Position numbers and translations under genes: made by a program. A DNA stretch of 37,358 bases from a virus, in the UHGV virus genome UHGV-0063828. The stretch is one strand, 5' to 3'. Below, piece after piece: positions 4,231 to 36,350 of this stretch (position 1 is its first letter; the number at the start of each line of letters is the position of its first letter). A model generated the notes under the pieces. That model was not told the DNA's origin and did no database searches. It saw nothing but the letters and a program-made list of their open reading frames with translations.

Positions 4231-4485
4231 TTAATGATCATGAAAGGTATTGGTTATCCCTTCGGGATTGCAACCTTCGGTTGCTAAATTGCTTCCTGAT
4301 TATAATTTCTCCAAAAGAAAGATTCTTATATTCTAAAGATACTTCTTCGTTTTGATGATGATTTAATCAAAATCTATGAAGGAGGCGAAGCCGACTGAAT
4401 CCAATCACTTCCAAATAGATAAAAAATTCTCGTTATAAATACTAGTGTAATTTGTTTGATTCACTTTCTTTTAGAGGATACCACT

Positions 4486-4938
4486 ATGATCAATACTAAA
4501 ACTCCTTTCATTCTTCTGGGTCTGAACCATGATGATAATCTGGCTATGATGCATGTTTTCGCTAATCGTGGTTATAACATCATTCGTCATTCCGAAGACT
4601 CCAATTTCTCAACTGCTTTCTATGCTCTTAAACGTAATGGTCGCCCTACGGTTATCGTAGACTGCTTTACTGATGAAGGTCGTGAACAATACAACAACAT
4701 TCCGGCAATTATTGTTCGTGATGACCTGCCGTTTGATGTTCGTGAATATGACGTTGATTTAGGCTCTTACTACGGGATCGCGGATCTTGACCAGATTATG
4801 GCTGATTATGGTAAACAACCCGCTCAGGAAGCCCCAGAACACGATGAACAAGACGAAGATGACGACGACTACGCACCAATCGCTTTTTCTTCTCACGGTG
4901 GCTTCTACGGTTACGATGAAGGCTTAGATATGCTGTAA
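4486..4938 (+). CDS. Acidic early protein (150 aa), function unknown
   Basis: AGAGGA SD before ATG at 4486 (track start 4456 is a TTG); first gene after the non-coding region; very acidic C-terminal half (EHDEQDEDDDDY). Confidence 0.5.
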   Translation: MINTKTPFILLGLNHDDNLAMMHVFANRGYNIIRHSEDSNFSTAFYALKRNGRPTVIVDCFTDEGREQYNNIPAIIVRDDLPFDVREYDVDLGSYYGIADLDQIMADYGKQPAQEAPEHDEQDEDDDDYAPIAFSSHGGFYGYDEGLDML

Positions 4939-4973
4939 GTTAGGTCAACCCTTTGGCGTTTTGTCAAGGGGTA

Positions 4974-5003
4974 TTGACAAAATTTTATGACTTTTTTATG
5001 ATT
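4974..5003 (+). promoter_or_regulatory. Sigma70-like promoter TTGACA-N18-TATGAT with adjacent palindrome TTGTCAA-N6-TTGACAA (4961-4980)
   Basis: Hexamers read directly; located upstream of the gene at 5059. Confidence 0.45.
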
Positions 5004-5058
5004 ATCGCACTTGACAACTTTGAACCTATTTGACCTAGATTTGTAAAGAGGGTGTAAC

Positions 5059-5391
5059 ATGAAAGAATTTACCATCACTAAATCCCTGTATGACTGGACT
5101 GTTAAAATCTCCGGCAAAACCGTTTCTGTAAGCCCTAGCCATGTAGAAAATGATTGGGGCGTATCCCGTGAAACAATCTCCCGTAGTATGCATGTTCCGT
5201 TTGATCTGATGTCCTTAACTGGTATTCATGCAATGCTGGAAGTTCGCGAGCAATTCGAAGCTGGTAATCACAATGCGACTCCAGTTAGCAATCACCTTCT
5301 TACTAATGAAGAACGTGAAATCATCGAAAACTGGCGTTATGAATATGCGATTCCTTATTATGAAGAAGACCAAGTAGAAATCGATTGGTAA
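5059..5391 (+). CDS. Hypothetical protein (110 aa)
   Basis: AGAGGG SD; preceded by promoter-like TTGACA-N18-TATGAT. Confidence 0.5.
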   Translation: MKEFTITKSLYDWTVKISGKTVSVSPSHVENDWGVSRETISRSMHVPFDLMSLTGIHAMLEVREQFEAGNHNATPVSNHLLTNEEREIIENWRYEYAIPYYEEDQVEIDW

Positions 5392-5487
5392 TAAATTTCT
5401 ATCATAAATAAAATTGTTCCGGTGGTGATGCCGGAACTAGGAGGACCAATATCATTATCGCAAAACCGTTTAAGGGGAATTTTTACT

Positions 5488-6318
5488 ATGAATACTGTTA
5501 CTACTATGAATACTGCTGTTAAAACTGCTTCCGTGTCTCTGGTTGTTGATAACACCAAACCGCTGACCATGTCTTCTCGTCAGATCGCTGAATTTACCGG
5601 AAAAGAACACAAAAACGTTAAACGTGATATTAAATCCATGCTCGATGCTCTGGAATTAGATGTGCTCAGTTTTGAGCGCACCTATCTTGATCAGTGTGGA
5701 CGTGAACAAACCGAATATCACCTTGACGAAGAACTTACGCTGACTCTTGTTACTGGTTACGATGTTAAGCGTCGAATGGTTGTTATTCAGGAATGGAAAC
5801 GACTGAAAGAAGAAAATGAAAAACTGCGTTCTCAGCAAGTCAACCCATACGCAAACATGACTAAGCTCGATTGGATTCGTGAGGCAATGGAATTGGAAGC
5901 CGCAAACGAACAACTGATTCAAGAAAAGAAACAACTGGTTGAATTGCATGTTCGTAAAGCTATCGACACACACAGTCTTAGCCGCTTATTAGGCGAAAAA
6001 CGAGGCTCTACGAAGGTACAAATTATTCTGAAAGGTTTATGTGCTGCTGGTGTTCTTGAGCGTCGTCTGGATGCTTCTGGTAAGCCTAAAGGCTATGATC
6101 TGCTTCCTCCTGGCTATATGTTCGCTCGTATGTCGGCACACGGTCAGATCGAGTTCACTGCTGATGCTATCCCGCATCTCGTAAAACTCGGATTGCTTGA
6201 AGAAGAAAAGGCCGCAACTTTGAAATTGCCACAGCCGAATAACTCACGAGCAATCGTCAATAATACTGCTTTGCTGATTCGTCAGAATGCTGGATCACTG
6301 GAACACTTCGGACTGTGA
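5488..6318 (+). CDS. Rha-family phage regulatory protein / antirepressor
   Basis: Motif MSSRQIAEFTGKEHKNVKRDIKSML matches the Rha N-terminal signature as recalled; AAGGGG SD before ATG at 5488; tetraloop-free hairpin terminator downstream. Confidence 0.6.
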   Translation: MNTVTTMNTAVKTASVSLVVDNTKPLTMSSRQIAEFTGKEHKNVKRDIKSMLDALELDVLSFERTYLDQCGREQTEYHLDEELTLTLVTGYDVKRRMVVIQEWKRLKEENEKLRSQQVNPYANMTKLDWIREAMELEAANEQLIQEKKQLVELHVRKAIDTHSLSRLLGEKRGSTKVQIILKGLCAAGVLERRLDASGKPKGYDLLPPGYMFARMSAHGQIEFTADAIPHLVKLGLLEEEKAATLKLPQPNNSRAIVNNTALLIRQNAGSLEHFGL

Positions 6319-6325
6319 TAATTTT

Positions 6326-6356
6326 TGCCCCTGAATTTCAGGGGCTTTTTGTTTTC
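6326..6356 (+). terminator. Intrinsic terminator after the Rha-like gene, built from the iteron motif
   Basis: GCCCCTGAA-T-TTCAGGGGC followed by TTTTTGTTTT. Confidence 0.7.
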
Positions 6357-6364
6357 TATAGGTA

Positions 6365-6389
6365 TAAAAAAGCCACTCCGAAGAGTGGC
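6365..6389 (-). terminator. Minus-strand intrinsic terminator with UUCG tetraloop
   Basis: On minus strand GCCACTC-TTCG-GAGTGGC followed by TTTTTT. Confidence 0.65.
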
Positions 6390-6397
6390 AATGAGAA

Positions 6398-6625
6398 TCA
6401 AACTCCGTTGATTGGTACAACCTCTCCACCGTCTACACGTATAAAGAACTCGACATTAAGTTTCTTCATACTTTTATAAAACTGGGCGGTGGAGATGCCC
6501 AGATCGTTTAATACTTTCTCTCTGCTTTCTTTACCTTTGCCAGCTTTGTAAAACTCGTAGCAAATGTATGCCAGTTGTTCACGATTAAAACGGGCAGGGC
6601 GACCGCGAGTAGCTTTAGTAGTCAT
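6398..6625 (-). CDS. Small DNA-binding-like protein (75 aa) sharing a C-terminal motif with the adjacent 200 aa protein
   Basis: Start placed at ATG with GGAGAAA SD (track start is a GTG); RGRP N-terminus; C-terminal KKLNVEFFIRVDGGEVVPI resembles [21 protein letters not shown] of the neighbour. Confidence 0.4.
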   Translation of the reverse strand: MTTKATRGRPARFNREQLAYICYEFYKAGKGKESREKVLNDLGISTAQFYKSMKKLNVEFFIRVDGGEVVPINGV

Positions 6626-6660
6626 AGTCATTTTCTCCAAATTAAAGTGAATGTTCACCT

Positions 6661-7263
6661 TTATTTAGAGGACTTAGATTTTATAGGAAAAAGTTCTCCA
6701 TCGTCAATACTCATAAAGAACTCAACCTTAATCCCGTACTTCTTCAACCGTGAATAATATGTACCCCGACTTATATCAACCTTGCGAAGCACTTCAAAGA
6801 AGGATTTAGGATCGTTGTAATAGTGGCTGTACTTCACGTTAGCGAGTTCAACGAATAGTTCCCTTGTATCACCATAGCCTTTCTTGAAAGCGATGTTACG
6901 AGGCATTGTAACAGCCATATTATCCCGTGTCTGTTTCAACACTTCTCGGATCGGCTTCCACTGCAACCGATAGATAGGACCGTCATCAATGCGATAATAA
7001 CGCTTGATATCAAAATCAAACCATTCACGGACTCGCTGAAACTCTGTCTGTGATGTTCGGTGCTTCTTAAAGAAGTTATGGATATCTGTATACCCATGAT
7101 CGCGATACAACTCGATTAAAATTTGCTTCGCTTCTTCGCGACTAAAGCCGGATGTTGTGTAATCAGTCTTCTTGTGATGGTGCTTAACTGGCAAACGATA
7201 TTCATGATCGGTACAAGACAAGGCTAATTCTAATTCATCTCTTTCTTGCTGATTAATTAGCAT
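6661..7263 (-). CDS. Hypothetical protein (200 aa) with repeated HTH-like modules
   Basis: Strong AAGGAGGG SD; internally repeated helix-rich units; divergent from the large terminase gene. Confidence 0.5.
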
Positions 7264-7350
7264 ACACCCTCCTTAAATCTTAATACCCGTATTTATCAAA
7301 AAATCAACAATTTAATAAATACCTTCATATTTCGTAATGAGGGTAATTAC

Positions 7351-15164: not shown

Positions 15165-18100
15165 ATGCAGTCGATCCAATTTAAACGAACAAATGTTTCT
15201 GGCAAAAAACCAACGCCGGAACAATTACAGGTCGGTGAGGTAGCAATCAACCTTAAAGACCATGTTATTTTTACCAAAGACCGAGATCATGAAGTAGTTC
15301 AAATCTCTGTTTCTCCTGAAACTCACGCGGCACTAGAATCTAAAGTTGATGCTAACAAACAAGAACTGGATAGCACAATTGCAGTAAATGACCGCAATAT
15401 TCACGCTAAAGTAGATGAAATTAAACAAACTACTGATGCAACCATCGCAGCAAATCACGCAGAAATTAACAATAAAGTTGATGTAATTAAACGCGAAACC
15501 GACGCGACAATCGAGGCCAATAAAAATAAAGCTGCTTCCGATCTTGCTGGTGTTAAAGCTGAATTGTCGGATACCATCAACGCTAATAAAAATGCGGCTG
15601 CTGTAGCAACTCAGGAACTGGACACCCGCATCAATAAAAAAGTTGATGATATTAAATCCCGTACCGATGCAACCATCGCAAGCAATGACAAAGCAATCAA
15701 TGACAAAGTTGATTTGATTAAGGCAGAAACTGACCGCACTATCGCAGCAAATAAAGTCTATGCGGAAAATCAGTTAACTGACACCTACAATAACCTTACT
15801 GGTGTGATTGCAGCCAATAAGCAAGAGGCAGCGGATAACGTCGCGGCATTAACCCGTGATGTTGAAGCCAAAAATACCGCAATTCATAGCAAAGTTGACA
15901 ATAACAAGTCTTACACTGATTCTGAATTGGCACGTTTAGAAAGCCGTATTGATGCAGCCGATGGATCGAGTGATGGCAAGTACATCAAAAAGCACGTAAA
16001 CACTTACACTGATGGCTATTTGCTATCTAAGACCGCAAACTATTTTGATGATCCGGGTGCGCGTAATCTTGATTATTTTGGTGCATTCCGCATGAATGAC
16101 CTGGCGGGTCATATTGCAATGATCTTGCATGTTCCGCATCCATCTGGTGTTAATCATGCTCGTGGCTTTGAGTTCACTTATGGGTCCAATCCACATGCTA
16201 CTGTAAGAACATACGGCTATGATGAATTGGGTCATTTGGCATATTCTCACCGCATGTATCATGAAGGCGATAAACCAACTCCGGCTGAAATTGGCGCATA
16301 TTCGAAAGCAGAAATTGACCGGATGTTCCAGAAGACCATCAACTTTGGTGTAGAAACTGGATGGTTTAAAATTGCTACCGCCTTTATTCCGCAAAATGAT
16401 GGACGTAGCTTGAAAATTAGATTGATTGGTGGAAATGGGTGGAACGTAGGCCAAACTGGACAATGTAATATTATTGAACTTGTTATAAGGACTAGCAACG
16501 GTTCGCCTAAAGGAATTAACTTTGTTGCGTATCATCATGTTTCTGGTTACGAGAATCAATTTTGTGCCATTAATACAAGTGATGACACTTATGATATCTA
16601 TGCATATTACTTCGAATTTACTAATATGGTAATGGCTGAATATCAAGCGTCTACCGGTGTTAATTTAACTGTACTTGATCGACCTGAATATGTAGGCGAA
16701 AAACCTGTAGCTGATCATATCTATGATGCATATACAATACACTCCTTTAACAGTTTCAGTAACCGTGGAACGTTAAATTTTGCTGGAAACCATCAAGGTC
16801 AATATGATATTGAGCATTTGAACGAACAACCGACAAATGCTAAGAAAATGCTGCGTCGCTTCCGTAGTTCTGCTCCTGCCACTATCTGGCACGAAAGTGT
16901 TGATGACCAAAATTATCGTCTTGCTACTGGATATAGCGATGTAAACCCACAATTATTGCTTTCTGCTGTAACCGGGTTACATGTCAAGAGATTAACGTTG
17001 GATGGTGGTGTCACTGGAAATTCTGGTATTGATATTCGTCGAGGACCAAACGAATCAAGCCATTTTAATTTTATGGATTATCGCACTGGTCAAGATGTTC
17101 GTAATGGCTGGTTTGGCTTCGGTGATGGTCAGACCAAAGATTTTATTTGGTGGAACGATAACGGTCAAAACTCGATAAACTTGATTGAAAACGGTGAATT
17201 GCATATTACTGGCGGTAAAGGCCAGAAAATTGTAATGAATAGCGAAGTTGCATTATCTGAAAATGCTCGTTTGGCTGTCAAAGGCGGTAACTATGGCTTA
17301 ATTTTTAGAAATGATGGATCTGACTTCCATATTCTCACCACAGGTCTCGGTGATTCCTTTGGACCGTGGAATACTCGTAGACCATTCAGCTATAATTTTG
17401 CGGATGGTGGATTGGATCTAGGTGGTACTGAAACCGCTCGTTGTTTGCACCTGGGAATTGATGGTAGCACTCGTCTCGAAGACAACCTTTTATTTAAATC
17501 TGGTTCTCGTCAATCTATGGACTATATGGAACTCGTCCATTGGGGTAACAGTAATACAGGACGCAACAACGTTTTGAGTATGCGGGATTCCAAAGGATTT
17601 TTAGCCGAATTTGAACGCACCGGAAACAATAGCATTAAAACTAGATTCTTTGGTGAAACCTTCACTGACGGTACATTATACCTAAATCAGATGAATAATA
17701 GCTCTGAACGATTCTCTATCAACAATTGGGGAAATTCAGAAGTTGGACGCGCGGCAGTAATGGAAATCGGTGATTCCAAAGGTTATCACTTCTATACGGA
17801 ACGTAGAACAGATAACAGTTTGGCGTTTGATGTTGCTGGCGCTTTTACTGTGCATGGACCTAACGGAATAACCATCAAAAACTCAGCGGGTGCACGCCAT
17901 ATCTGGTTTAGAGATGATAGCGATGCAGAAAAGGCTGTTATCTGGGCTACAGATGATGGTCTTTTACATATTCGCAATAACTACGGTGGACATTTTAGTC
18001 ATCACTTCCAGGGTGCAATGATTAAAGTGGGAGAGCGTGTTCCTTATGCCGCAGATCAAGGACTTATCCGTGGTGAGGTTTCTGGTGGTGCATATGTTGC

Positions 18101-18683
18101 ATGGAGAGACCGACCTGCTGGTTTGTTGGTTGACTGTCAACAAAGCGTTGATAGTGCTCATGCTATTTGGAAAGCGGTTGATTGGGGGCGTAACTACATC
18201 GCTGCTATGGACGTTCATTGTCCCGGTGATAGTAATAATACTGCGGCAGCGGTTCTTCATGTTCAGGGTGCTGATTATCAATTCCATGCAAGTGGAGAAT
18301 TTCATGCCACTGGTAACGGAAACTTTAACGATGTTTATATTCGTTCCGATCGTCGTCTGAAAATTAATGTTGAAGACTACGAAGAAAATGCGGTAGATAA
18401 GGTAAATAAACTCAAAGTTAAAACCTACGATAAAGTTAAATCACTTTCTGATCGCGAAGTCATCGCACATGAGATTGGTATTATCGCACAGGATTTACAA
18501 GAGGTATTACCGGAAGCTGTTAAAACCGCAAAAATTGGTGGTCTTGATAACCCAGAAGAAATTTTAACAATTTCAAACTCCGCAGTGAACGCGCTTTTAA
18601 TTAAAGCGGTCCAAGAAATGAGCGAAGAAAATAAACTTCTTCGTGAACGTCTTGCTGCTATTGAGGCTAAATTATTTGGTTAA
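15165..18683 (+). CDS. Side tail fibre with C-terminal intramolecular chaperone (peptidase S74-like) domain
   Basis: N-terminal periodic KVDxIKxxTDATIAxN repeats (4 copies); last ~112 aa SDRRLKINVEDYEENAVDK...LAAIEAKL resembles the self-cleaving chaperone of T5 L-shaped fibre and endosialidases. Confidence 0.85.
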   Translation: MQSIQFKRTNVSGKKPTPEQLQVGEVAINLKDHVIFTKDRDHEVVQISVSPETHAALESKVDANKQELDSTIAVNDRNIHAKVDEIKQTTDATIAANHAEINNKVDVIKRETDATIEANKNKAASDLAGVKAELSDTINANKNAAAVATQELDTRINKKVDDIKSRTDATIASNDKAINDKVDLIKAETDRTIAANKVYAENQLTDTYNNLTGVIAANKQEAADNVAALTRDVEAKNTAIHSKVDNNKSYTDSELARLESRIDAADGSSDGKYIKKHVNTYTDGYLLSKTANYFDDPGARNLDYFGAFRMNDLAGHIAMILHVPHPSGVNHARGFEFTYGSNPHATVRTYGYDELGHLAYSHRMYHEGDKPTPAEIGAYSKAEIDRMFQKTINFGVETGWFKIATAFIPQNDGRSLKIRLIGGNGWNVGQTGQCNIIELVIRTSNGSPKGINFVAYHHVSGYENQFCAINTSDDTYDIYAYYFEFTNMVMAEYQASTGVNLTVLDRPEYVGEKPVADHIYDAYTIHSFNSFSNRGTLNFAGNHQGQYDIEHLNEQPTNAKKMLRRFRSSAPATIWHESVDDQNYRLATGYSDVNPQLLLSAVTGLHVKRLTLDGGVTGNSGIDIRRGPNESSHFNFMDYRTGQDVRNGWFGFGDGQTKDFIWWNDNGQNSINLIENGELHITGGKGQKIVMNSEVALSENARLAVKGGNYGLIFRNDGSDFHILTTGLGDSFGPWNTRRPFSYNFADGGLDLGGTETARCLHLGIDGSTRLEDNLLFKSGSRQSMDYMELVHWGNSNTGRNNVLSMRDSKGFLAEFERTGNNSIKTRFFGETFTDGTLYLNQMNNSSERFSINNWGNSEVGRAAVMEIGDSKGYHFYTERRTDNSLAFDVAGAFTVHGPNGITIKNSAGARHIWFRDDSDAEKAVIWATDDGLLHIRNNYGGHFSHHFQGAMIKVGERVPYAADQGLIRGEVSGGAYVAWRDRPAGLLVDCQQSVDSAHAIWKAVDWGRNYIAAMDVHCPGDSNNTAAAVLHVQGADYQFHASGEFHATGNGNFNDVYIRSDRRLKINVEDYEENAVDKVNKLKVKTYDKVKSLSDREVIAHEIGIIAQDLQEVLPEAVKTAKIGGLDNPEEILTISNSAVNALLIKAVQEMSEENKLLRERLAAIEAKLFG

Positions 18684-18722
18684 TTAAAATAGCGGGGAGA
18701 AATCCCCGCTAAGGATTCTTAT

Positions 18723-19019
18723 ATGGGATATTGGGTAAGTAGTGAAATTAATACTAAAATCGATGCTTTAAAATGGCATGTATTTGATATTCCTAACGGC
18801 TATGGTACTGCTCGTGCTGGTGTCGCTGTAATGCGTCATAATGCTGGTGGTGGGTGGTCTGATGCACATATTAACGTAGATGGTTTGACCGTTGCTCGTC
18901 GTCGTGGTGGGACCAATTGGGGATCTACTATAAATTCGTTTGTTCCTGCTGGCTGCACCGTCTCCTTTGGTTTAGGGGGTGAAGGTGGTGTTGAATATTT
19001 TAAATTCATGGAGTTTTAA
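18723..19019 (+). CDS. Small Gly/Trp-rich protein, paralog 1 of 3 (FDIPNG family)
   Basis: AAGGA SD; shares W..FDIPNGW and C-terminal T-V-S-F..G...YFKF pattern with the next two ORFs. Confidence 0.6.
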   Translation: MGYWVSSEINTKIDALKWHVFDIPNGYGTARAGVAVMRHNAGGGWSDAHINVDGLTVARRRGGTNWGSTINSFVPAGCTVSFGLGGEGGVEYFKFMEF

Positions 19020-19021
19020 TT

Positions 19022-19327
19022 ATGGCTGGATGGATAAATCAAAGAATGTCAAACGCTATTAGTATTTGGGCTAATGGTGGATATTTTGATATCCCCAACG
19101 GCTGGGTTACTGATTCATGCGGAATTGTTTTTGCTCATATGGAAGCCATTAACGGTGCTGGTGATCTTGATTCTGAATTGGCTGTAAATGGATTGATTGA
19201 ATCAGGTCATCATGCTGGTGATGCTGGGAGTTGGGGCGCTAGTTCTTTAGTTGGCGCTGGTGCTACCGTTAGCTTTACATTGGGTAAAGGTAGTTTGCAT
19301 TATTTCAAATTCAGGAGAATGCACTAA
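19022..19327 (+). CDS. Small Gly/Trp-rich protein, paralog 2 of 3
   Basis: Starts 3 nt after paralog 1 stop; conserved FDIPNGW core. Confidence 0.6.
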   Translation: MAGWINQRMSNAISIWANGGYFDIPNGWVTDSCGIVFAHMEAINGAGDLDSELAVNGLIESGHHAGDAGSWGASSLVGAGATVSFTLGKGSLHYFKFRRMH

Positions 19328-19629
19328 TGGCATTTTGGGTAGATGGCGCTTTGGGGACTAGGGCGGGTAAAGCAAATCAAGGATGGTTTGATATTCCTAA
19401 CGGTTGGACAGCCGACGCTTTCGGGACTATTTCATTCTGTGTTCATTCTTCCGGTGGTGGCGGCGGTGACTCTGAATTGTTTATTCATGGTTTTTGTGTT
19501 TCTGGAAGCCATAAGGGTCATGATTGGGGACAGATCCATTCTTGTATTGCACCGCAAGGAGCAGTAATTACAGTTAGCACAAATAGGGGGATCGCTCATC
19601 TTCGTTATAGACGTTTGAGCAATCGCTAA
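19327..19629 (+). CDS. Small Gly/Trp-rich protein, paralog 3 of 3
   Basis: TAATG stop/start overlap with paralog 2; AGGAGA SD; conserved FDIPNGW core. Confidence 0.6.
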   Translation: MAFWVDGALGTRAGKANQGWFDIPNGWTADAFGTISFCVHSSGGGGGDSELFIHGFCVSGSHKGHDWGQIHSCIAPQGAVITVSTNRGIAHLRYRRLSNR

Positions 19630-19683
19630 ATAAATAGAATTACGGGTATGTACCCTATTGTTTAAAATAGAAGGAAAAGAATA

Positions 19684-30512: not shown

Positions 30513-30866
30513 ATGTTAAGCAAACATTTTTCTCGCAAGGAATTTAAATGTAAATGCGGAAAATGTGATTATGATACAATCGACGCTGAATTACTGGTAA
30601 TTCTTGAGGATGTACGCGAACACTTCGGGAAACCAGTAATTATTAACAGTGGGAACCGTTGTCCGACTCATAACAAGAATGTAGGCGGTGCAACCAACAG
30701 CTATCACGTTCGAGGCCGTGCGGCTGACATTGTGATCAAGGGTGTCTCCCCTGATATTGTCCATGCTTATCTTGATGGGAAATATCCTACTCAATACGGC
30801 TTAGGCAAATATAAAACCTTTACGCATATCGATTCCAGATCGAAAAAATCACGATGGAATGGATAA
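30513..30866 (+). CDS. Peptidase M15-family protein, putative endolysin
   Basis: FSRKEFKCKCGKC...INSGNRCPTHNKNVGGATNSYHVRGRAADI matches the zinc peptidase M15 / YcbK-like signature as recalled; AAGGGGG SD; bidirectional terminator downstream. Confidence 0.6.
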   Translation: MLSKHFSRKEFKCKCGKCDYDTIDAELLVILEDVREHFGKPVIINSGNRCPTHNKNVGGATNSYHVRGRAADIVIKGVSPDIVHAYLDGKYPTQYGLGKYKTFTHIDSRSKKSRWNG

Positions 30867-30868: not shown

Positions 30869-30897
30869 TTAAAGCGCCCACTAGAGGCGCTTTTTTG
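30869..30897. terminator. Bidirectional terminator between convergent M15 peptidase and helicase genes
   Basis: AGCGCC-cactaga-GGCGCT hairpin flanked by A-run upstream and T-run downstream. Confidence 0.65.
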
Positions 30898-32388
30898 TTA
30901 TATAGCAATTGTTTTAGTTGCATAGCTGAACTTGTCGGTTAGATAATAGCGGATTCTCTCAAGTGCATGTTTTACCGCATAATTTTTATGCTTGACTTTT
31001 CCGTTACGACCGAATATACACAAATGATCGATAAGATCCCAGACCGTTGCAATGTCTTTCGAACCATGTTTACGCAATGCACGACCGATACTCTGACGAA
31101 CGATAGTTGATTCCTTCACTGGATGACCGAAAATAACATGGTGCAAATTCTTAATTGAAACACCAGTAGAGAACACACCATAAGACGCAACACAAATGAT
31201 CCCGGTGTCACCCTCCGCCATTTTCTTAAATTCATCACGTTCTTCTGTCTTAACTCCACCGTCAATATAATAAACCTTGTCGTGTACCTTCTGTAACGCG
31301 TCATACATAAGTTTTCCGTGCTTAGTATTGCGGAACATCAGGAATACGTTTTCGCCCTTCTTAGCGAGTTTTAGCGCCAAATTACAAGCAAACTTATTTC
31401 GTCGTGGGTTAGATGTAATATACTTGATCTCTTCCGCATATTCTCTCCCCTTAACCGCGCTACATTCCTCATCGGTATAACGAAGGAAAAGACAGTTGAT
31501 TTTCAGTTTCGTCACTTGACCTTCTTCCATCAGGCGGTCAATACTCACGATCTTAGAAATATCACCGAAAAGCCCGACATACTGCATTAAATGGCACTTT
31601 GATTCTTTCGGGGAACCAGTCATACCGATCTTAAACTGGCAATGATTCATTCCGTTAATGATATTGGTAATATTTTTGGCACTAGCCTTATGCGATTCAT
31701 CAACTATCAACATTCCATATTGTCGGAACCATTCAGGAGGCATCTTGCAAGCTGATTGCCAGGTACTAACCGTGATTAACCTGTCTCCCGGATGTTTCCC
31801 GCTACCACTCATCATTGTATGGATTGCTTCATAAGGGAATAACCGATAATCGATGAAATCATCCCTCATTTGAACCACTAGCGATGTAGTCGGGACAATG
31901 ATTAACACCTTTCCGGTGTAATGCTCTAAGTACCAACGAGACAGCATACAAGCAATCAATGACTTTCCGGCACTGGTAGGAAGAACCAGCATTCTACGGC
32001 GATTGTGGATACCCTGAAAGACTGCTTCACGCTGATACCAGTAAGGATTGATTTTATTGGAACCGGAATACACTTCTAAAGAGTCAATCCACGAATCAAT
32101 CTGTTCTTTGGTTACATCTTCCTTCTCAAGTAATCGCGGGTCAATCCAGACTGAATAGCCCATATTTTTAACGAAGACACCCAATGTTTTTAATAGTCCA
32201 ATTGGTAGGGTATTTTCATGCGTAAACAGTCTTATTCGTCCATCCCAGCCGGAATACTTGTAGCGGGGGCTAAACCTAGCCCCTTCAACCTCAAACGAGA
32301 AATAATCTCTTAATTCCATTCCGATAGAAGGAGAGCAATCAACCTTAACGAAACTGTAATCTTGAAAATGAATTTTAATATCTTGCAT
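30898..32388 (-). CDS. SF2 helicase, T4 UvsW-like
   Basis: Walker A LPTSAGKS, DESH box, TGSP, QSIGRALR motifs; N-terminus MQDIKIHFQDYSFVKVDC resembles T4 UvsW as recalled; start placed at ATG 32388 with GGAGTGG SD (track start 32397 is GTG). Confidence 0.65.
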   Translation of the reverse strand: MQDIKIHFQDYSFVKVDCSPSIGMELRDYFSFEVEGARFSPRYKYSGWDGRIRLFTHENTLPIGLLKTLGVFVKNMGYSVWIDPRLLEKEDVTKEQIDSWIDSLEVYSGSNKINPYWYQREAVFQGIHNRRRMLVLPTSAGKSLIACMLSRWYLEHYTGKVLIIVPTTSLVVQMRDDFIDYRLFPYEAIHTMMSGSGKHPGDRLITVSTWQSACKMPPEWFRQYGMLIVDESHKASAKNITNIINGMNHCQFKIGMTGSPKESKCHLMQYVGLFGDISKIVSIDRLMEEGQVTKLKINCLFLRYTDEECSAVKGREYAEEIKYITSNPRRNKFACNLALKLAKKGENVFLMFRNTKHGKLMYDALQKVHDKVYYIDGGVKTEERDEFKKMAEGDTGIICVASYGVFSTGVSIKNLHHVIFGHPVKESTIVRQSIGRALRKHGSKDIATVWDLIDHLCIFGRNGKVKHKNYAVKHALERIRYYLTDKFSYATKTIAI

Positions 32389-32957
32389 TAGTTCCACTCC
32401 ACACTTGCAATATTCTTTATATTGTTTAGTGATTTATTGCAGTAGTGGAATGTTTCAGTTTTACCGTATTCAATCCCGCCTATACCCACATCCAGTAATC
32501 TCTTTATTGCTCTTTCAGTGGCTAAAGCATGTTTCATTGATGGCATTTCACCAGCAAAGACAATATCAAAGTTATGACCGGGATTGCGTACACCCAGATT
32601 AACACGTCGCTTGATGATTGACTTTGTAACACCAAATTTACCAATATCCCCTGATTTCATTACATAGAGATAAGGCACACCCGCTTTATATTGAAAGTAA
32701 TCACTTTTGAGACATGCACAGCGTTTACCTTCATTAAGCAGGTTGGTAGCTGATTTGTCGGCTCTATTGCCGCATCTGGTACATGTAAGAGCAATTCTTG
32801 AATGAAGCCCTTTAAACTCACCCAGAAAGCCATGAAAGACTAATGGTAAGTCCTTCTCTTTGATGTGAGTCAGAATGCGTTGTTCTAATGCCGATGGAGT
32901 TACAGCACGGGAGGATTTAGGAGTAAAAACAATATCTTTAGCCATTACTGGAATCAT
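32388..32957 (-). CDS. Zinc-ribbon plus T5orf172 (GIY-YIG-like) domain protein
   Basis: CTRCGN...CACLK cysteine pairs followed by YLYVMKSGDIGKFGVTK...ERAIKR...GKTETFHY; stop overlaps the helicase ATG (TAATG). Confidence 0.55.
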   Translation of the reverse strand: MIPVMAKDIVFTPKSSRAVTPSALEQRILTHIKEKDLPLVFHGFLGEFKGLHSRIALTCTRCGNRADKSATNLLNEGKRCACLKSDYFQYKAGVPYLYVMKSGDIGKFGVTKSIIKRRVNLGVRNPGHNFDIVFAGEMPSMKHALATERAIKRLLDVGIGGIEYGKTETFHYCNKSLNNIKNIASVEWN

Positions 32958-33110
32958 ATAGACCTCACTTTTTAACTTATAGGCATAACCTCAATATGGT
33001 TGGTTTGGGATTTAGGGTCGCGTATTATACACATCCAGATAGAGAATGCAATAGTAAGACAATTTTCTCTAATAAATAGTAGTGAGCTTATTATTTTAGA
33101 GGAAACTACT

Positions 33111-34286
33111 ATGAAACTTGCTTACGCTGCCGAAATTCCTTTTGTTAAGAAAACTCGCGGTTTATCGCCGGAAGAGTACCAACAACGAATCATCGCTAAA
33201 CTGGAACCTGCTTTCGTATTTGGTGGATTTATCCTACCGTGGAAGGGTAATCACACTTACTTTCGAATCTACAATTTAGATACACAAGAATATAAGGACT
33301 ACAAATTACGCAAACTGGAAGATACTAACGGGGGTGAGTTATTCCAGACTGAAAAGGCTGTATGGTTGAAAATGGAATCTCGTTGTAATGAGAAGGGAAA
33401 GAAATTCCTCGGATGGCAAGGAGAATGGAAAGGGCGAAATAGAACGAAAGCCCGTGTTTTGTGCCCTGAACACAATCAAATCATGACGCCATCTCTATTA
33501 CATGCTCTTAAAGATGATTTCGATTTTGATTGCAAAATCTGTATGGCTGAAAAATCCCAACGGGTAAGAAGTGGCAAGACTTTTGATGAAGTTATTAAGG
33601 ACAAAGAGACAATCATCAATGCACGTTGCGAGACTACACCTTACATCTTCAAAGGATTCATCATAAACACCCCACACCTAAAGGATGTTAAATTTAAAAC
33701 CTATTGCAAGACACATAACCACGAATGGGAATCTCATTTAAGATGTGCTGATTCTTTCACTTGTCCGCTTTGCATTAAAGACCAACTGGTGCAACTGTCT
33801 AACCGGACTTATCAGGGTAAGGCTAGTTTCTACATTCAATTATTAGATGACAAATTTATTAAATTTGGAATCACTACCCGGAAACCAGAAGAACGAATGA
33901 GAGAGCAAACCAGAAAGAGCAACTTCACTCACCGCTTAATCTTTACTCATGAGTTTGAGGATGGTTGGAAAGCCGTTGATTTAGAGCATGAAGTAAAACA
34001 ACGCTTCAAGACTCATGCAGCACCCTACAAAGATTTCAAGGATGGATGGTCGGAAACTCTGACTATTGATGAGTTACCACACTTACAGCAACTGGTTTAT
34101 GACTACCTAACCAATCAACCGGACGAGGCTAATATGTGGGTATCTCCGAAAGATGTATTTGATGACGATACATTCAAGCTACATACTCACTTCTACGGCA
34201 TCAATAAACCGGAATTTTTCTGTATTGATGACGACAGTCCTGATTTAATGGATGAATACTTTAATACTCTCTTAGAGGCTCTCTAA
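33111..34286 (+). CDS. Zinc-finger plus T5orf172 (GIY-YIG-like) domain protein
   Basis: Start placed at ATG 33111 with AGAGGA SD; Cys/His clusters (CPEHN...CKIC; CKTHNH...CPLC) then FYIQLLDDKFIKFGITTRKPEERMRE...GWSETL. Confidence 0.55.
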   Translation: MKLAYAAEIPFVKKTRGLSPEEYQQRIIAKLEPAFVFGGFILPWKGNHTYFRIYNLDTQEYKDYKLRKLEDTNGGELFQTEKAVWLKMESRCNEKGKKFLGWQGEWKGRNRTKARVLCPEHNQIMTPSLLHALKDDFDFDCKICMAEKSQRVRSGKTFDEVIKDKETIINARCETTPYIFKGFIINTPHLKDVKFKTYCKTHNHEWESHLRCADSFTCPLCIKDQLVQLSNRTYQGKASFYIQLLDDKFIKFGITTRKPEERMREQTRKSNFTHRLIFTHEFEDGWKAVDLEHEVKQRFKTHAAPYKDFKDGWSETLTIDELPHLQQLVYDYLTNQPDEANMWVSPKDVFDDDTFKLHTHFYGINKPEFFCIDDDSPDLMDEYFNTLLEAL

Positions 34287-34298: not shown

Positions 34299-34326
34299 AA
34301 AAAGGGGTACGAATGTACCCCTTAAC
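34299..34326. terminator. Bidirectional terminator-like hairpin between T5orf172 gene and integrase gene
   Basis: AAGGGGTAC-GAAT-GTACCCCTT perfect 9 bp stem, A-run upstream, T-containing tract downstream. Confidence 0.5.
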
Positions 34327-34359: not shown

Positions 34360-36039
34360 TTAAATTCCAAATTCCTGTAATGGACCTGGTATTTCCTCTT
34401 CTGGTTTCCAGTTCTTATCTGTCAGCATGTCTAAACATGGATGCAAAACAAGCCCGTTACTTTCCAGAATCTGCCTATCATTGATAGTTTTCAAATCAAT
34501 GAATATCCGGCCTTTCCTCGTTCCTCTTGAATTTTCTATTACAACTCTCTGGGTTTTTCCATCGATGTATTCCAGTACAAACAAGTTTTTGTTTCTGTCA
34601 ATCCTGCTACACCCGATCCGCTTTAGAGCTTGCTTAATCTTAAACCGGACCTTTAGTCGTTCCTCGTTGTAAACATCTTCTAAATCAAATTCTGCGAGCT
34701 TCTCCCAGCCTTGAGAGTCAACAGAATACATTTCCTCTTCTGCCATCTTGATCTGATTGTAGAGTGTTTCACGCTCGCTATTGAGGGTAGTAATCTGATC
34801 GGCTAGTTCCTTCGTTGCTCCTGTCATAGCAGAAAGGGCAATCAGGTTATCAATCTTGCGTGATATCTCATCAACCTGTACTTTCAACGCCGGAACCGGA
34901 TTAGCCTTATCCTCAGCAATCCAGATTTTATCAGCCAGCAATTGCAATACAGCTTTCTCTAATTGATCACCTCGAAAACTCCAGTTTGGATGCTCGCAAT
35001 CAAGTCTACGTGAACGGGTCGCATCACATGTATAACGATACTGGTCAGAACGTTTGTTCGTTCCCTTCACTTTAACCATAGCGCAACCGCAATGATCACA
35101 TTTCAATAGGCCAATACCACTAAGCAGGGGGATCGGTTTAACTTCTTCCTTGTCTCCAAAGTTCCATGCTCTAGCACCAATATTTTTCTTAAGGTGATAG
35201 AACGTAGCATCATCAATAACACGAGGGTAATAATCCTTTAACTCATAGTTAACGCCATCTACAGAGACCTCCTTGATACCAATCAAAGCGCGGGTATGAA
35301 ACAACCTTTCAACCATTGCCCGTGACCATTTTGAATGCTTCTTATTACTAACCGCTGGTGGTGGTGCATATGTCTCGTTAAGGTGATCCAGTATTTCGGC
35401 GGTTGAACGTCCATTCTTCCGTAATTCCACAATCTCCTGAACAACAGGGAAGAAGACCGGATGAGGCAACACATAACCGGAAGTGGTATCAGTCCACCAC
35501 ATATTCTTTCCAACTTCCTCGATTGCCACTGCCGGATTCTGGGGATTTTCTTGATGGGCTTTAATCTTAATCAGTGCGCTTGAGTTAGTACGATTGCGCT
35601 TAGTCTGGCTTTCCTCATTACCACGGATGAATAAAAGGATGGAGAACATCAGGTCCATCGGATTAGCGGTAACAGTATCCAGCGAGTAGATCTTGTTATC
35701 CATGCCAGTAACAATGGTTATCCCCCTACGGATTATTGAAAGGAATAACTCCTGCGCACTGACAATATCGGCACGGGATAAACGGTCCAAGTTTTCAATG
35801 AATAGCCAGCTACCAACAGGAACGGATCTACCAATTGCATCAAGGAAACGAGATAGCGCCCCTGTTTTAGAGTTAGCACCTTTAAACGCAGATACACCCA
35901 GATCCTGATAATCATTTACCAGTTCTAAGTCATACTTTGCCGCAATCTCTCTCGCCATCCTGATTTGTCGTTCATAACTCGAACCATCACTCTGACGCAT
36001 AGACGAGAAGCGAATATACGAATACAGTTTAGTTTTCAT
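34360..36039 (-). CDS. Large serine recombinase (integrase)
   Basis: N-terminal resolvase-type catalytic domain (YSYIRFSSMRQ, ENLDRLSR); cysteine-rich zinc ribbon (CDHCGC...YTCDA...CEH); C-terminal coiled coil; ~559 aa from ATG at 36039. Confidence 0.85.
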   Translation of the reverse strand: MKTKLYSYIRFSSMRQSDGSSYERQIRMAREIAAKYDLELVNDYQDLGVSAFKGANSKTGALSRFLDAIGRSVPVGSWLFIENLDRLSRADIVSAQELFLSIIRRGITIVTGMDNKIYSLDTVTANPMDLMFSILLFIRGNEESQTKRNRTNSSALIKIKAHQENPQNPAVAIEEVGKNMWWTDTTSGYVLPHPVFFPVVQEIVELRKNGRSTAEILDHLNETYAPPPAVSNKKHSKWSRAMVERLFHTRALIGIKEVSVDGVNYELKDYYPRVIDDATFYHLKKNIGARAWNFGDKEEVKPIPLLSGIGLLKCDHCGCAMVKVKGTNKRSDQYRYTCDATRSRRLDCEHPNWSFRGDQLEKAVLQLLADKIWIAEDKANPVPALKVQVDEISRKIDNLIALSAMTGATKELADQITTLNSERETLYNQIKMAEEEMYSVDSQGWEKLAEFDLEDVYNEERLKVRFKIKQALKRIGCSRIDRNKNLFVLEYIDGKTQRVVIENSRGTRKGRIFIDLKTINDRQILESNGLVLHPCLDMLTDKNWKPEEEIPGPLQEFGI

Positions 36040-36051
36040 ACCATTTCCAAA

Positions 36052-36088
36052 CAAAAACGCCCCTACCGTGTATTATAACGATAGGGGC
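36052..36088 (-). terminator. Minus-strand terminator between secreted-protein gene and integrase start; loop contains TATAAT
   Basis: On minus strand GCCCCTA...TAGGGGC stem followed by GTTTTTGTTT; candidate integrase promoter overlaps. Confidence 0.45.
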
Positions 36089-36104: not shown

Positions 36105-36350
36105 TTAATATTTCTTTCCAGTTAGTTTTGCATCACGTTTATTAATATCCTCGATATGACTCCATACACACGCAGTAATAAAGTCGTCATCGTCACCAAC
36201 TCCGGCAATCTGTGCTAATTCAGTACACAGTTGATTTAAAGAAGGTGCAACGGCAGCACGCTTGACACTATCACCCTGTACATATTGATCCGCATTAGCA
36301 GCACCCACCAAACCCAGAGCAAGAACAACACCAGCGATAATCTTTTTCAT
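36105..36350 (-). CDS. Small secreted protein (81 aa) with signal peptide
   Basis: AAGAGGAAA SD; N-terminal MKKIIAGVVLALGLVGAANA signal-like sequence; DDDD motif and two Cys in mature part. Confidence 0.55.
   Translation of the reverse strand: MKKIIAGVVLALGLVGAANADQYVQGDSVKRAAVAPSLNQLCTELAQIAGVGDDDDFITACVWSHIEDINKRDAKLTGKKY

What the first reader, a model, noticed from the sequence alone, without database searches (positions are those of the whole stretch)
30898..34286. UvsW-like helicase translationally coupled to a zinc-ribbon/GIY-YIG-like gene, with a second such gene divergent, between lysis region and integrase
An SF2 helicase with all core motifs and a T4 UvsW-like N-terminus sits in a temperate prophage's accessory region rather than a replication module. 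Its start overlaps (TAATG) the stop of a zinc-ribbon plus T5orf172 protein, and a second zinc-finger plus T5orf172 protein is encoded divergently. The block is bracketed by bidirectional terminators at 30869-30897 and 34299-34326, so it looks like a self-contained cassette. A helicase paired with a nuclease-like partner is a common architecture of anti-phage defence and of recombination-restart systems, and I do not recognise this combination as a named system.
Basis: partly seen in the sequence, partly recalled or inferred. Interest (0 to 1): 0.7.

Follow-up and report, generated by a model that had tools for sequence, protein, structure and literature searches.

The report
T4-type uvsW plus homing-nuclease genes in prophage
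A temperate E. coli prophage carries the uvsW helicase gene of T4-like lytic phages, next to two nuclease genes of the homing-endonuclease type, and part of that gene was recently copied from a living lytic phage; this is most likely selfish-nuclease gene traffic between lytic and temperate viruses, not a new helicase-nuclease defence machine.

Summary
The three genes, the TAATG overlap and both flanking terminators are present.

The helicase is a full-length orthologue of phage T4 UvsW (PDB 2OCA, E 9e-184), not a new family. Its gene is a mosaic. Window 31073-31629 is 98.9% identical to uvsW of the lytic Krischvirus phage pEJ01, with 341 nt perfect. The 5' half is only 67% identical to that phage but about 90% identical to other prophage alleles.

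Both nuclease-like genes have CapR zinc fingers plus a GIY-YIG/T5orf172-type domain. That architecture has been described as a class of putative homing endonuclease genes. ORF2 sits where the homing endonuclease segE sits in T4, abutting the uvsW start. The closest phage relatives of ORF3 lie directly after uvsW in two Krischvirus genomes.

Related prophages carry helicase-only, nuclease-only and empty versions of this hotspot, so the genes are separable. The helicase is intact in every copy and under purifying selection (dN/dS about 0.1).

Best reading: a T4-type uvsW homing locus living in a temperate prophage. A defence role, possibly switched on by T4-type late transcription, is not excluded.

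This is a new variant of a known kind, of moderate interest.

The parts
30871..30893 (.). Bidirectional terminator-like hairpin between the endolysin and the 3' end of the helicase gene
   Evidence: 8-9 bp G+C-rich stem with a T-run, readable on both strands.
30898..32388 (-). uvsW orthologue: SF2 helicase, 496 aa from the ATG at 32388
   Evidence: Pfam UvsW_N, ResIII and Helicase_C. Matches PDB 2oca at E 9e-184 over the full length with motifs intact. It is 81-84% aa identical to Krischvirus UvsW. dN/dS is 0.01-0.12 among prophage copies. It is intact in every helicase-bearing prophage locus read.
31073..31629 (-). Recent gene-conversion tract inside uvsW, derived from a Krischvirus phage
   Evidence: The tract is 557 nt with 6 mismatches to phage pEJ01, and 341 nt are perfect (31073-31413). 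All differences across this part of the gene are synonymous. The flanking parts of the gene are 65-67% identical to the same phage.
32388..32957 (-). ORF2: CapR zinc finger plus a GIY-YIG/T5orf172-type nuclease domain, 189 aa. Its stop overlaps the helicase ATG (TAATG). It occupies the position that segE occupies in T4.
   Evidence: (invariant C59, C62, C80, C82; Y96, Y98; G106, K107, G109; R117; E148; T167, E168, T169, F170).
32391..32495 (-). 3' end of ORF2. It is conserved in all ORF2 alleles and is the only part of ORF2 kept in the helicase-only deletion derivatives. It carries the helicase Shine-Dalgarno and a weak late-promoter-like TATAAAGA (32421..32414).
   Evidence: The promoter role is an inference.
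33024..33051 (-). Candidate sigma-70 promoter for the ORF2-uvsW operon: -35 TTGCAT at 33051..33046, a 16-nt spacer, and -10 TATAAT at 33029..33024
   Evidence: Read from the sequence. Both hexamers are conserved in five cassettes, including the Salmonella one, although the coding regions are highly diverged. The consensus scan did not list it because the -35 matches only 3 of 6.
33071..33113 (+). ORF3 leader. It contains a T4-late-promoter-like octamer AATAAATA (33071-33078), hairpin arms at 33076-33083 and 33105-33112 that enclose the Shine-Dalgarno (33098-33104) and cover the first two bases (AU) of the AUG, and the ATG at 33111.
   Evidence: In sister alleles the octamer is an exact TATAAATA and the stem is 12 bp (L003: -15.2 kcal/mol, z -3.2). 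Edgell et al. describe the same design for I-TevI, segB and mobE.
33111..34286 (+). ORF3: two CapR-type zinc fingers plus a GIY-YIG (MUG113/T5orf172-type) nuclease domain, 391 aa
   Evidence: (invariant C118, H121, C141, C144; C199, H202, C218, C221; Y241; K251, F252, G253; R262; E292; G312, W313, E315, T316). The closest phage relatives lie between uvsW and uvsW.1 in the Krischvirus phages Whisky and JK32.
34302..34323 (.). Bidirectional terminator-like hairpin between ORF3 and the integrase gene

Best explanation
The block is a T4-type 'uvsW plus free-standing homing-endonuclease gene' locus that now resides in the integrase-proximal hotspot of a temperate E. coli/Salmonella prophage inserted in ycdX.

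Shown:
- The helicase is an intact UvsW orthologue.
- ORF2 and ORF3 are CapR-zinc-finger plus GIY-YIG/T5orf172-type proteins with conserved metal-binding and nuclease motifs.
- Nuclease genes of this kind, or of the SegE kind, sit immediately before or after uvsW in T4 and Krischvirus phages.
- The prophage uvsW has recombined recently with a Krischvirus phage.
- The nuclease genes are swapped as cassettes between conserved flanks, independently of the helicase allele.

Inferred mechanism:
- The nucleases make sequence-specific breaks in alleles that lack them or differ from them, in or near uvsW of co-resident T4-like phage DNA. Phage-encoded nucleases may do the same to the prophage copy.
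- Repair by homologous recombination then copies DNA between the prophage and the phage. This produces the mosaic uvsW and the turnover of nuclease alleles.
- The nuclease-helicase adjacency therefore reflects a homing nuclease sitting beside its target or cargo gene. It does not reflect two subunits of one machine.
- The helicase itself is kept functional by selection. It most probably works as UvsW does in T4 (branch migration, fork regression, R-loop unwinding), for the benefit of the prophage or its host.
- ORF3 may be translated mainly from T4-type late transcripts, that is, when a T4-like phage infects the lysogen.
For: - UvsW orthology holds over the full length and the motifs are intact.
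- T4 RefSeq places segE 2 nt before uvsW. SegE is an active homing endonuclease that cuts the hoc.1-uvsW region of phages lacking it and homes with co-conversion of the flanks.
- Krischvirus G5211 has a SegE-family gene 4 nt before uvsW. Whisky and JK32 carry the closest phage homologue of ORF3 directly after uvsW.
- ORF3 homologues occur 2-3 times per Krischvirus genome. ORF2 homologues in T5-like phages are annotated as homing endonucleases.
- CapR+T5orf172 is a described class of putative homing endonucleases found at the boundaries of genetic exchange.
- A 557-nt tract is 98.9% identical to phage pEJ01, while the flanking parts of the gene are 65-67% identical.
- Within Krischvirus too, the part of uvsW next to an inserted nuclease gene is the divergent part.
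- Two prophages with 98-100% identical integrase and endolysin have ORF2 at 46% and the ORF3 slot at about 30% aa identity, between conserved leaders and tails.
- Helicase-only alleles are deletion derivatives that retain remnants of both nuclease genes. Nuclease-only alleles also exist.
- Related prophages keep uvsY and fragments of gp27 in T4-like order. Some of these pieces are 97-100% identical to extant Krischvirus phages.
- The ORF3 leader has a late-promoter-plus-hairpin design like that of T4 homing endonucleases.
Against: - No cleavage site, homing event or expression data exist.
- The close relatives of ORF2 and ORF3 are found only in this prophage family. Phage homologues are only 25-30% identical, so no recent transfer of the nuclease genes themselves is documented.
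- Both nuclease genes lie on the same side of uvsW, so the cargo is not bracketed.
- There is no Krischvirus homology on the far side of ORF2, so classical two-sided homing of ORF2 into a phage is not obviously possible.
- All three genes are intact, with dN/dS well below 1, in the E. coli and Salmonella prophage copies compared. This looks more like function than like a decaying selfish gene.
- The late-promoter-like octamer in this window is 7 of 8. Its 8-bp hairpin is not more stable than shuffled sequence (z about -1.4).
Confidence: 0.6

Rival explanations
1. A prophage-encoded interference (defence) module against T4-like phages. The zinc-finger nucleases cut the DNA of invading Krischvirus-type phages at specific sites. 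The ORF3-slot nuclease is released only when T4-type late transcription starts inside its inhibitory hairpin. The stolen T4-type genes (uvsW here; uvsY and gp27 N-terminal fragments in sister prophages) disturb the invader's replication, recombination or assembly.
For: - The block sits in a variable, integrase-proximal prophage hotspot with its own promoter and terminators.
- The three genes are conserved and under purifying selection in E. coli and Salmonella prophages.
- The nuclease alleles diversify rapidly in fixed slots, as specificity determinants in an arms race would.
- The ORF3 leader has the late-promoter and hairpin design.
- There is precedent for co-opted T5orf172/CapR proteins in phage-satellite conflict and for a GIY-YIG defence nuclease, PD-T4-3.
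- Two gp27 5' fragments from two different Krischvirus lineages sit in tandem, each still an ORF.
Against: - PADLOC has no match for ORF2 or ORF3 and only generic helicase hits.
- The helicase and the nucleases are separable.
- The cassette contains no exact TATAAATA.
- There is no phenotype.
- Every listed feature is also expected for selfish homing genes.
Confidence: 0.2
2. A recombination and replication-restart module used by the temperate phage itself. UvsW drives branch migration or fork regression, and the translationally coupled ORF2 acts as a structure-specific (SLX1-like) nuclease that resolves the branched DNA.
For: - The stop and start codons overlap.
- The best structural matches of both nucleases are SLX1 structure-specific endonucleases.
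- The prophage has no other recognisable replication or recombination gene.
- The helicase is under purifying selection.
Against: - ORF2 carries a CapR-type sequence-specific DNA-binding finger.
- ORF2 alleles diverge to 46% beside a nearly unchanged helicase 5' end.
- Helicase-only derivatives persist in at least five loci.
- Most sister prophages lack the helicase altogether.
- The same tight spacing is seen for T4 segE-uvsW, where the nuclease is a homing enzyme.
Confidence: 0.1
3. Inert debris: a fragment of T4-like DNA picked up by illegitimate recombination and simply not yet lost.
For: - Sister prophages show progressive loss: gp27 fragments, a truncated uvsY, deletions of ORF2 and ORF3, and an ORF3 remnant with a stop codon.
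- Most relatives lack the helicase.
Against: - The helicase is full length with no stop in every copy read.
- dN/dS is 0.06-0.11 in the prophage-specific 5' half, with 26-51 synonymous changes.
- ORF2 dN/dS is about 0.1.
- Catalytic and zinc-binding residues are invariant across alleles only 38-42% identical.
- The promoter region is conserved.
Confidence: 0.05

Closest known systems
Phage T4 segE-uvsW locus (free-standing GIY-YIG homing endonuclease SegE next to uvsW)
   Same: - A GIY-YIG-superfamily nuclease gene lies on the same strand directly upstream of uvsW with almost no spacer: a 2-nt gap in T4, a 4-nt gap in Krischvirus G5211, and a 1-nt overlap here.
- In T4 the nuclease cuts the uvsW-proximal region of phages that lack it and drives co-conversion of the flanks.
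- The prophage uvsW is itself a conversion mosaic.
   Different: - ORF2 is not a SegE homologue. BLASTP finds no similarity, Pfam finds no SegE_GIY-YIG domain, and the domain order is reversed, with the zinc finger N-terminal and the nuclease C-terminal.
- The locus is in a temperate prophage.
- It appears to be driven by a sigma-70-type promoter rather than a T4 late promoter.
CapR+T5orf172 putative homing endonucleases and 'HEG-islands' (Barth et al. 2023, PMC10448857)
   Same: - The protein architecture is the same: one to three CapR CxxC...CxC fingers plus a T5orf172/MUG113 domain.
- The DNA-binding modules are repetitive and shuffled.
- The nuclease genes sit at the boundaries of exchanged DNA.
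- Cognate nuclease genes are replaced in the same slot by distant relatives.
- The cargo is conserved at the nucleotide level between otherwise unrelated phages.
   Different: - That work concerns lytic phages and a satellite. The words 'prophage' and 'temperate' do not occur in the paper.
- Here one partner is a temperate prophage and the other a lytic T4-like phage.
- The two nuclease genes are on one side of the cargo and do not bracket it.
Domesticated T5orf172/CapR proteins in the ICP1-PLE conflict (PLE CapR repressor; ICP1 Odn nuclease)
   Same: A chromosomally integrated mobile element carries a relative of homing endonucleases with the CapR finger, used against a lytic phage. The four cysteines are at equivalent spacing.
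   Different: No evidence here of repression or of anti-phage activity. The system described in those papers is in Vibrio (ICP1 and its satellite PLE); this one is in an E. coli/Salmonella prophage. Both proteins here keep the nuclease motifs.
Translational control of T4 homing endonucleases (I-TevI, segB, mobE): a late promoter inside a hairpin that hides the ribosome-binding site
   Same: The ORF3 leader has a late-promoter-like octamer overlapping the 5' arm of a hairpin whose 3' arm covers the start codon. A late transcript would start just after the 5' arm.
   Different: The octamer is 7 of 8 in this window and exact only in sister alleles. The stem is short (8 bp). No transcript mapping exists. 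The gene is on the bacterial chromosome.
Prophage-encoded anti-phage systems in variable hotspots (helicase-nuclease types such as Hachiman or Gabija; the GIY-YIG nuclease PD-T4-3)
   Same: The position is a variable prophage hotspot, and the gene content is a helicase plus nucleases.
   Different: There is no profile match for the nucleases. The helicase matches only through the generic SF2 core. The components occur separately. The helicase is orthologous to a phage core gene.

Membership tests
T4 UvsW helicase family | N-terminal UvsW_N domain followed by two RecA-like SF2 domains, colinear with T4 UvsW | tested here: met
   PF21241 at 118 bits, plus ResIII and Helicase_C. PDB 2oca at E 9e-184, residues 3-494 against 2-500.
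T4 UvsW helicase family | Intact SF2 motifs: Walker A GKS, DExH, motif III, motif VI arginine | tested here: met
   PTSAGKS, DESH, TGS and QSIGRALR are aligned to T4. K142, D230, E231, H233 and R436 are invariant in the 7-sequence alignment.
T4 UvsW helicase family | Neighbourhood of uvsW.1 and uvsY as in T4-like phages | tested here: not met
   This window has neither; a terminator and the endolysin follow the helicase. Sister prophages keep uvsY or a fragment of it in T4-like order.
T4 UvsW helicase family | Branch-migration and R-loop helicase activity | not testable with these tools
   Needs biochemistry or complementation of a T4 uvsW mutant or E. coli recG.
Free-standing homing endonuclease genes, CapR+T5orf172 class | GIY-YIG-superfamily (T5orf172/MUG113) nuclease domain | tested here: met
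   [not shown]
Free-standing homing endonuclease genes, CapR+T5orf172 class | Conserved nuclease motif residues, including the glutamate needed for T5orf172 activity | tested here: met
   Y96, Y98, G106, K107, G109, R117, E148 and T167-E168-T169-F170 in ORF2, and Y241, K251, F252, G253, R262, E292 and G312-W313-S-E315-T316 in ORF3, are invariant across alleles down to 38-42% identity. Equating E168 and E315 with the catalytic glutamate is an inference.
Free-standing homing endonuclease genes, CapR+T5orf172 class | N-terminal CapR-type zinc finger (CxxC...CxC) for DNA binding | tested here: met
   PF21817 is above its cut-off in both proteins. C59, C62, C80 and C82 are invariant in ORF2, and two Cys/His fingers are invariant in ORF3. 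The motif is as described.
Free-standing homing endonuclease genes, CapR+T5orf172 class | Intergenic position beside a conserved phage gene, and patchy presence among otherwise similar genomes | tested here: met
   ORF2 sits in the segE position. Presence, absence and replacement are seen among sister prophages and among Krischvirus genomes.
Free-standing homing endonuclease genes, CapR+T5orf172 class | Site-specific cleavage of the allele lacking the gene, and biased inheritance (homing) | not testable with these tools
   The only indirect trace is the conversion mosaic in uvsW.
HEG-island (Barth et al. 2023) | Cargo gene conserved at the nucleotide level between phages that otherwise share little sequence | tested here: met
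   A 557-nt tract at 98.9% identity to a Krischvirus phage. Outside uvsW and a tail-fibre region, the prophage shares nothing with phage records at megablast level.
HEG-island (Barth et al. 2023) | Two or more nuclease genes flanking the cargo on both ends | tested here: not met
   ORF2 and ORF3 are both upstream of uvsW. Downstream there is only a terminator and the endolysin.
T4 SegE family | SegE_GIY-YIG domain (PF19835), with an N-terminal nuclease domain | tested here: not met
   PF19835 hits T4 SegE and the G5211 gene but not ORF2. BLASTP of ORF2 against SegE finds nothing.
Known anti-phage defence systems (PADLOC-DB 2.0) | Profile match of the components to a catalogued system | tested here: not met
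   ORF2 and ORF3 match no family. The helicase gives only weak generic hits to PbeA, HamB and type IV restriction helicase cores.
Known anti-phage defence systems (PADLOC-DB 2.0) | Components always co-occur as one unit | tested here: not met
   Helicase-only loci L008 and L036-L039, and nuclease-only loci L003, L009 and L010.
Known anti-phage defence systems (PADLOC-DB 2.0) | Protection against phage infection | not testable with these tools
   Needs plaque assays on isogenic strains.

The most novel reading that the evidence does not exclude
The hotspot is a prophage weapon built from stolen T4-like parts.
- Sequence-specific CapR/GIY-YIG nucleases stay untranslated in the lysogen because a hairpin hides their start site.
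- They are released only when an infecting T4-like phage switches on its own late transcription from the TATAAATA-like box inside that hairpin.
- They then cut the invader around uvsW.
- Meanwhile the host-promoter-driven UvsW (plus UvsY and truncated gp27 in sister prophages) disturbs the invader's origin firing, recombination or baseplate assembly.
- The same events would explain why fresh pieces of Krischvirus DNA keep being written into this locus.
Probability: 0.2. Interest if true: 0.85.

Novelty: new variant of a known kind. Interest (0 to 1): 0.5.

Why it matters
Homing endonucleases and the genes they drag along are known to shuffle DNA among lytic T4-like and ICP1-like phages. Here the same kind of locus sits in a temperate prophage on the bacterial chromosome, and it carries a near-identical tract from a living lytic phage. 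If the reading is right, prophages act as reservoirs and exchange partners for the core genes and selfish nucleases of virulent phages. That is a route of gene flow between two viral lifestyles usually treated as separate gene pools.

It also gives a simple, testable system: E. coli lysogens plus Krischvirus phages such as RB49, Phi1 or GEC-3S. With it one can ask whether chromosomally resident homing nucleases merely spread, or also protect the lysogen against lytic phages. For annotation, it warns that a 'helicase next to a nuclease in a prophage hotspot' is not by itself evidence of a defence system.

Tried and rejected
- PADLOC scan of all three proteins found nothing for the nucleases and only generic SF2 hits for the helicase.
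- PDB sequence search with ORF3 found no hit.
- An exact T4 late promoter TATAAATA does not occur inside the cassette. The 7 matches in the window all lie elsewhere, so the late-promoter idea rests on a 7-of-8 match here and on exact matches in sister alleles.
- Hairpin stability in this window is not better than shuffled sequence (z -1.4 to -1.5). Only the L003 allele is clearly better (z -3.2).
- ORF2 against T4 SegE shows no sequence similarity, so ORF2 is not filed as SegE.
- Profile-profile comparison of the ORF2 and ORF3 families aligned only the N-terminal module.
- A scan of 185,579 species-representative genomes for UvsW relatives found none. This is uninformative because only two narrow peptide patterns were used.
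- IMG/VR scans with both nuclease families returned only the same prophage family and one Krischvirus, so no new contexts emerged.
- Rfam scan of the window found no family.
- PHROG scan of the prophage early region found no replication gene.
- The SLX1-like 'resolvase partner' idea was considered and ranked low. The match is only to the shared fold, and ORF2 carries a sequence-specific finger and is dispensable in helicase-only derivatives.
- Literature searches for UvsW or UvsY in prophages listed no title or abstract describing a prophage-borne uvsW; the papers were not read in full.

Full report
**1. What is in the sequence**

The three ORFs exist as described.

- Helicase. The ORF runs 30898..32397 on the minus strand. 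The ATG at 32388 overlaps the TAA of the upstream gene as TAATG, giving 496 aa. RefSeq calls near-identical E. coli copies the same way.
- ORF2 is 32388..32957 on the minus strand (189 aa).
- ORF3 is best started at the ATG at 33111, preceded by AGAGGAA, giving 391 aa, rather than at the TTG at 33000.
- Hairpins with T-runs on both strands lie at 30871-30893 and 34302-34323.
- The flanks are an M15 endolysin (30513-30866) and a large serine recombinase (34360-36054).
- The whole window is one prophage inserted in ycdX, between ghrA and ycdY.

**2. The helicase is UvsW itself**

- Pfam gives UvsW_N (118 bits), ResIII and Helicase_C.
- Against solved structures it matches T4 UvsW at E 9e-184 over its whole length, with Walker A, DExH, motif III and motif VI intact.
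- At the DNA level it hits only the uvsW genes of Krischvirus phages, the RB49/Phi1/GEC-3S group of T4-like coliphages. There are 56 such records.
- So the helicase is an orthologue of a core recombination gene of lytic phages, not a new helicase family.

**3. The gene is a mosaic with a very recent phage-derived patch**

Sliding-window and mismatch counts divide the gene into three parts.

| Part of uvsW | Identity to Krischvirus pEJ01/GEC-3S | Identity to other prophage alleles (L002, L017) |
|---|---|---|
| First 759 nt | 67% | 90-91% |
| Window 31073-31629 (557 nt) | 98.9% to pEJ01 (6 mismatches; 341 nt perfect at 31073-31413) | 72% |
| Last ~175 nt | 65-68% | 63% |

- Across codons 254-439, which span this tract, the window differs from pEJ01 only by 7 synonymous changes and no non-synonymous ones.
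- There the window sequence nests inside Krischvirus diversity. The simplest reading is therefore gene conversion from a pEJ01-like phage into the prophage copy.

**4. The helicase is kept by selection**

- Pairwise Nei-Gojobori dN/dS among prophage copies is 0.01-0.12, with dS up to 0.38.
- In the prophage-specific 5' half, the window against L002 and L017 gives 43-51 synonymous and 22-23 non-synonymous differences, so dN/dS is 0.09-0.11.
- Every helicase-bearing prophage locus I read has a full-length ORF without stops.
- Caveat: these are pairwise estimates on recombining sequences.

**5. The two partner genes**

- Both carry the CapR zinc-finger domain above Pfam's cut-off.
- ORF3 also passes MUG113 of the GIY-YIG clan and just misses T5orf172 (19.1 against 20).
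- ORF2 has no Pfam nuclease hit, but several lines support a nuclease domain:
  - PHROG 681 'endonuclease' covers residues 31-182.
  - A 74%-identical homologue is precomputed as T5orf172.
  - A 42%-identical allele scores 21.1 bits.
- The ORF3 model (pLDDT 79) gives the same top hits.
- Family alignments down to 38-42% identity keep the following residues invariant:
  - ORF2 finger: C59, C62, C80, C82.
  - ORF2 nuclease motif: Y96, Y98, G106, K107, G109, R117, E148, T167-E168-T169-F170.
  - ORF3: two Cys/His fingers, then Y241, K251, F252, G253, R262, E292, G312-W313-S-E315-T316.
- The CxxC...CxC finger is the one shown to bind DNA in PLE CapR.
- CapR+T5orf172 is the architecture that Barth et al. 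describe as a class of putative homing endonucleases.

**6. The same kind of gene sits beside uvsW in lytic phages**

- T4 RefSeq has the GIY-YIG homing endonuclease gene segE ending 2 nt before uvsW.
- SegE is active. It cuts the hoc.1-uvsW region of phages that lack it and homes at almost 100% efficiency with co-conversion of the flanks.
- Krischvirus G5211 has a SegE-family gene 4 nt before uvsW.
- The best phage homologues of ORF3 (29% identity, E 2e-34) lie directly after uvsW, between uvsW and uvsW.1, in the Krischvirus phages Whisky and JK32. Other Krischvirus genomes have nothing there.
- ORF3 homologues occur two or three times per Krischvirus genome.
- ORF2 homologues in T5-like phages are annotated as homing endonucleases.
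- Within Krischvirus, the end of uvsW next to an inserted nuclease gene is the divergent end. This is the 5' part in G5211 and the 3' tail in Whisky and JK32.
- ORF2 is not a SegE homologue. It occupies SegE's place.

**7. Variation among sister prophages**

Fifty-eight complete E. coli genomes match the region.

- Seventeen carry the helicase. Twelve of them align over at least 93% of the 6.5-kb query.
- Four show the 74%-coverage pattern. In the one I read (L008), the helicase is intact, only the last 105 nt of ORF2 and the first 24 nt of ORF3 remain, and the rest of both genes is deleted. Four IMG/VR loci are the same.
- The other matching genomes lack the helicase. Of those I read:
  - L011 has an empty hotspot.
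  - L003, L009 and L010 hold other members of the same nuclease superfamily.
- L017 has integrase 98% and endolysin 100% aa identical to the window. Its ORF2 is nevertheless 46% and its ORF3-slot protein about 30% identical, set between the conserved leader, the conserved ORF2 3' end and the conserved ORF3 3' end.
- The nuclease genes therefore behave as exchangeable cassettes, independent of the helicase allele.
- A Salmonella prophage at the same chromosomal site keeps all three genes.

**8. More T4-like DNA in the family**

- L017-L020 carry a full uvsY and gp27 (PF09097) fragments beside uvsW, in the T4 gene order with the intervening genes missing.
- In L018, two tandem gp27 5' fragments are 97.5% and 97.4% identical to two different Krischvirus lineages.
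- In L002, a uvsY fragment is 100% aa identical to GEC-3S UvsY.
- The hotspot has therefore taken up Krischvirus DNA repeatedly and recently.
- Elsewhere in the window, 16028-19645 (tail fibre) is 85-92% identical to T4-like long-tail-fibre genes. The prophage and these lytic phages probably share hosts.

**9. Expression signals**

- The 153-bp divergent intergenic region is conserved even where the coding regions have diverged.
- On the minus strand it contains TTGCAT (33051..33046), a 16-nt spacer and TATAAT (33029..33024). This is a plausible host-type promoter for ORF2-uvsW.
- Krischvirus uvsW instead has an exact T4 late promoter upstream.
- The ORF3 leader has AATAAATA (33071-33078) overlapping the 5' arm of a hairpin (33076-33083, pairing with 33105-33112). 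The hairpin loop holds the Shine-Dalgarno and its 3' arm covers the start of the AUG.
- In the L003 and L009 alleles the octamer is an exact TATAAATA. L003 folds into a 12-bp stem (-15.2 kcal/mol, z -3.2).
- A paralogue in L002 also has an exact TATAAATA.
- A late-type transcript would begin about 33084, just past the 5' arm. That is the design reviewed for I-TevI, segB and mobE.
- In this window the evidence is weak: a 7-of-8 match and z of -1.4. This step is inference.

**10. Interpretation**

The nuclease-helicase adjacency is best explained as a homing-type nuclease beside its target or cargo gene, resident in a prophage, with ongoing recombination with Krischvirus phages.

- The helicase is functional and selected. 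Its benefit is unknown; it may be prophage replication or recombination, host R-loop or fork repair, or interference with invaders.
- A defence role for the nucleases is compatible with everything seen, but nothing seen requires it.
- The 'one machine' reading is weakened by the separability of the parts and by the T4 precedent.

**11. What remains open**

- No cut site, transcript or phenotype is known.
- The nuclease genes have no close relatives in sequenced phages.
- They do not bracket uvsW.
- All three genes look maintained rather than decaying.

Noticed in passing
window 16028-19645: The C-terminal two thirds of the 1172-aa tail-fibre ORF (15165-18683) and three small ORFs after it are 85-92% nt identical to the long-tail-fibre distal subunit region of Krischvirus and other T4-like phages. 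No other part of window 1-25000 matches any phage record at megablast level. This is a second island of T4-like DNA in the prophage.
   Followed up: partly
L018 10570-11120 (E. coli GCA_041866535.1): Two tandem fragments of the 5' end of baseplate gene 27 are 97.5% identical to Krischvirus G5211 and 97.4% identical to Krischvirus Whisky respectively. Each is still an ORF of 82-89 aa from the native start. These look like two independent recent captures of the same gene segment from two phage lineages.
   Followed up: partly
L017-L020 10103-10510; L002 3974-4141: Sister prophages carry a full-length uvsY (135 aa, 51% identical to GEC-3S UvsY) or a 55-aa fragment 100% identical to GEC-3S UvsY. 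T4 RefSeq annotates replication origin oriF at the 5' end of uvsY, so these prophages might carry a T4-type origin. I did not test this.
   Followed up: no
window 3110-4455: A stretch of about 1.3 kb has no ORF longer than 72 aa and is unannotated in the RefSeq copy. Three of the window's seven TATAAATA octamers lie in or at its edges (3170, 3228, 4434). Rfam finds nothing.
   Followed up: partly
window 1-7300 (prophage early region): No replication initiator, helicase loader, polymerase, recombinase or repressor is recognisable. Only a small-terminase-like protein (639-1208) and a Rha/Ant-like regulator (5422-6318) hit PHROGs. UvsW is the only recognisable DNA-metabolism enzyme apart from the integrase, the terminase and the nucleases.
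   Followed up: partly
L002 9309-10355: A third paralogue of the nuclease family, with three CapR repeats plus a T5orf172-like domain, lies on the other side of the integrase gene in strain FDAARGOS_1267. An exact TATAAATA lies about 35 nt before its start.
   Followed up: partly
L029 (IMG/VR UViG 2671181056_000005): An ORF2 100% identical to the window's is combined with a helicase only 84% aa identical and an ORF3-slot protein 33% identical. This is a further recombinant arrangement of the three slots.
   Followed up: no
window 36105-36350 (minus strand): A small ORF of 81 aa with a signal-peptide-like N-terminus (MKKIIAGVVLALGLVGAANA) lies between the integrase and the attachment site. It has no PHROG match and is replaced by other small genes in sister prophages.
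   Followed up: no
[not shown]
   Followed up: no
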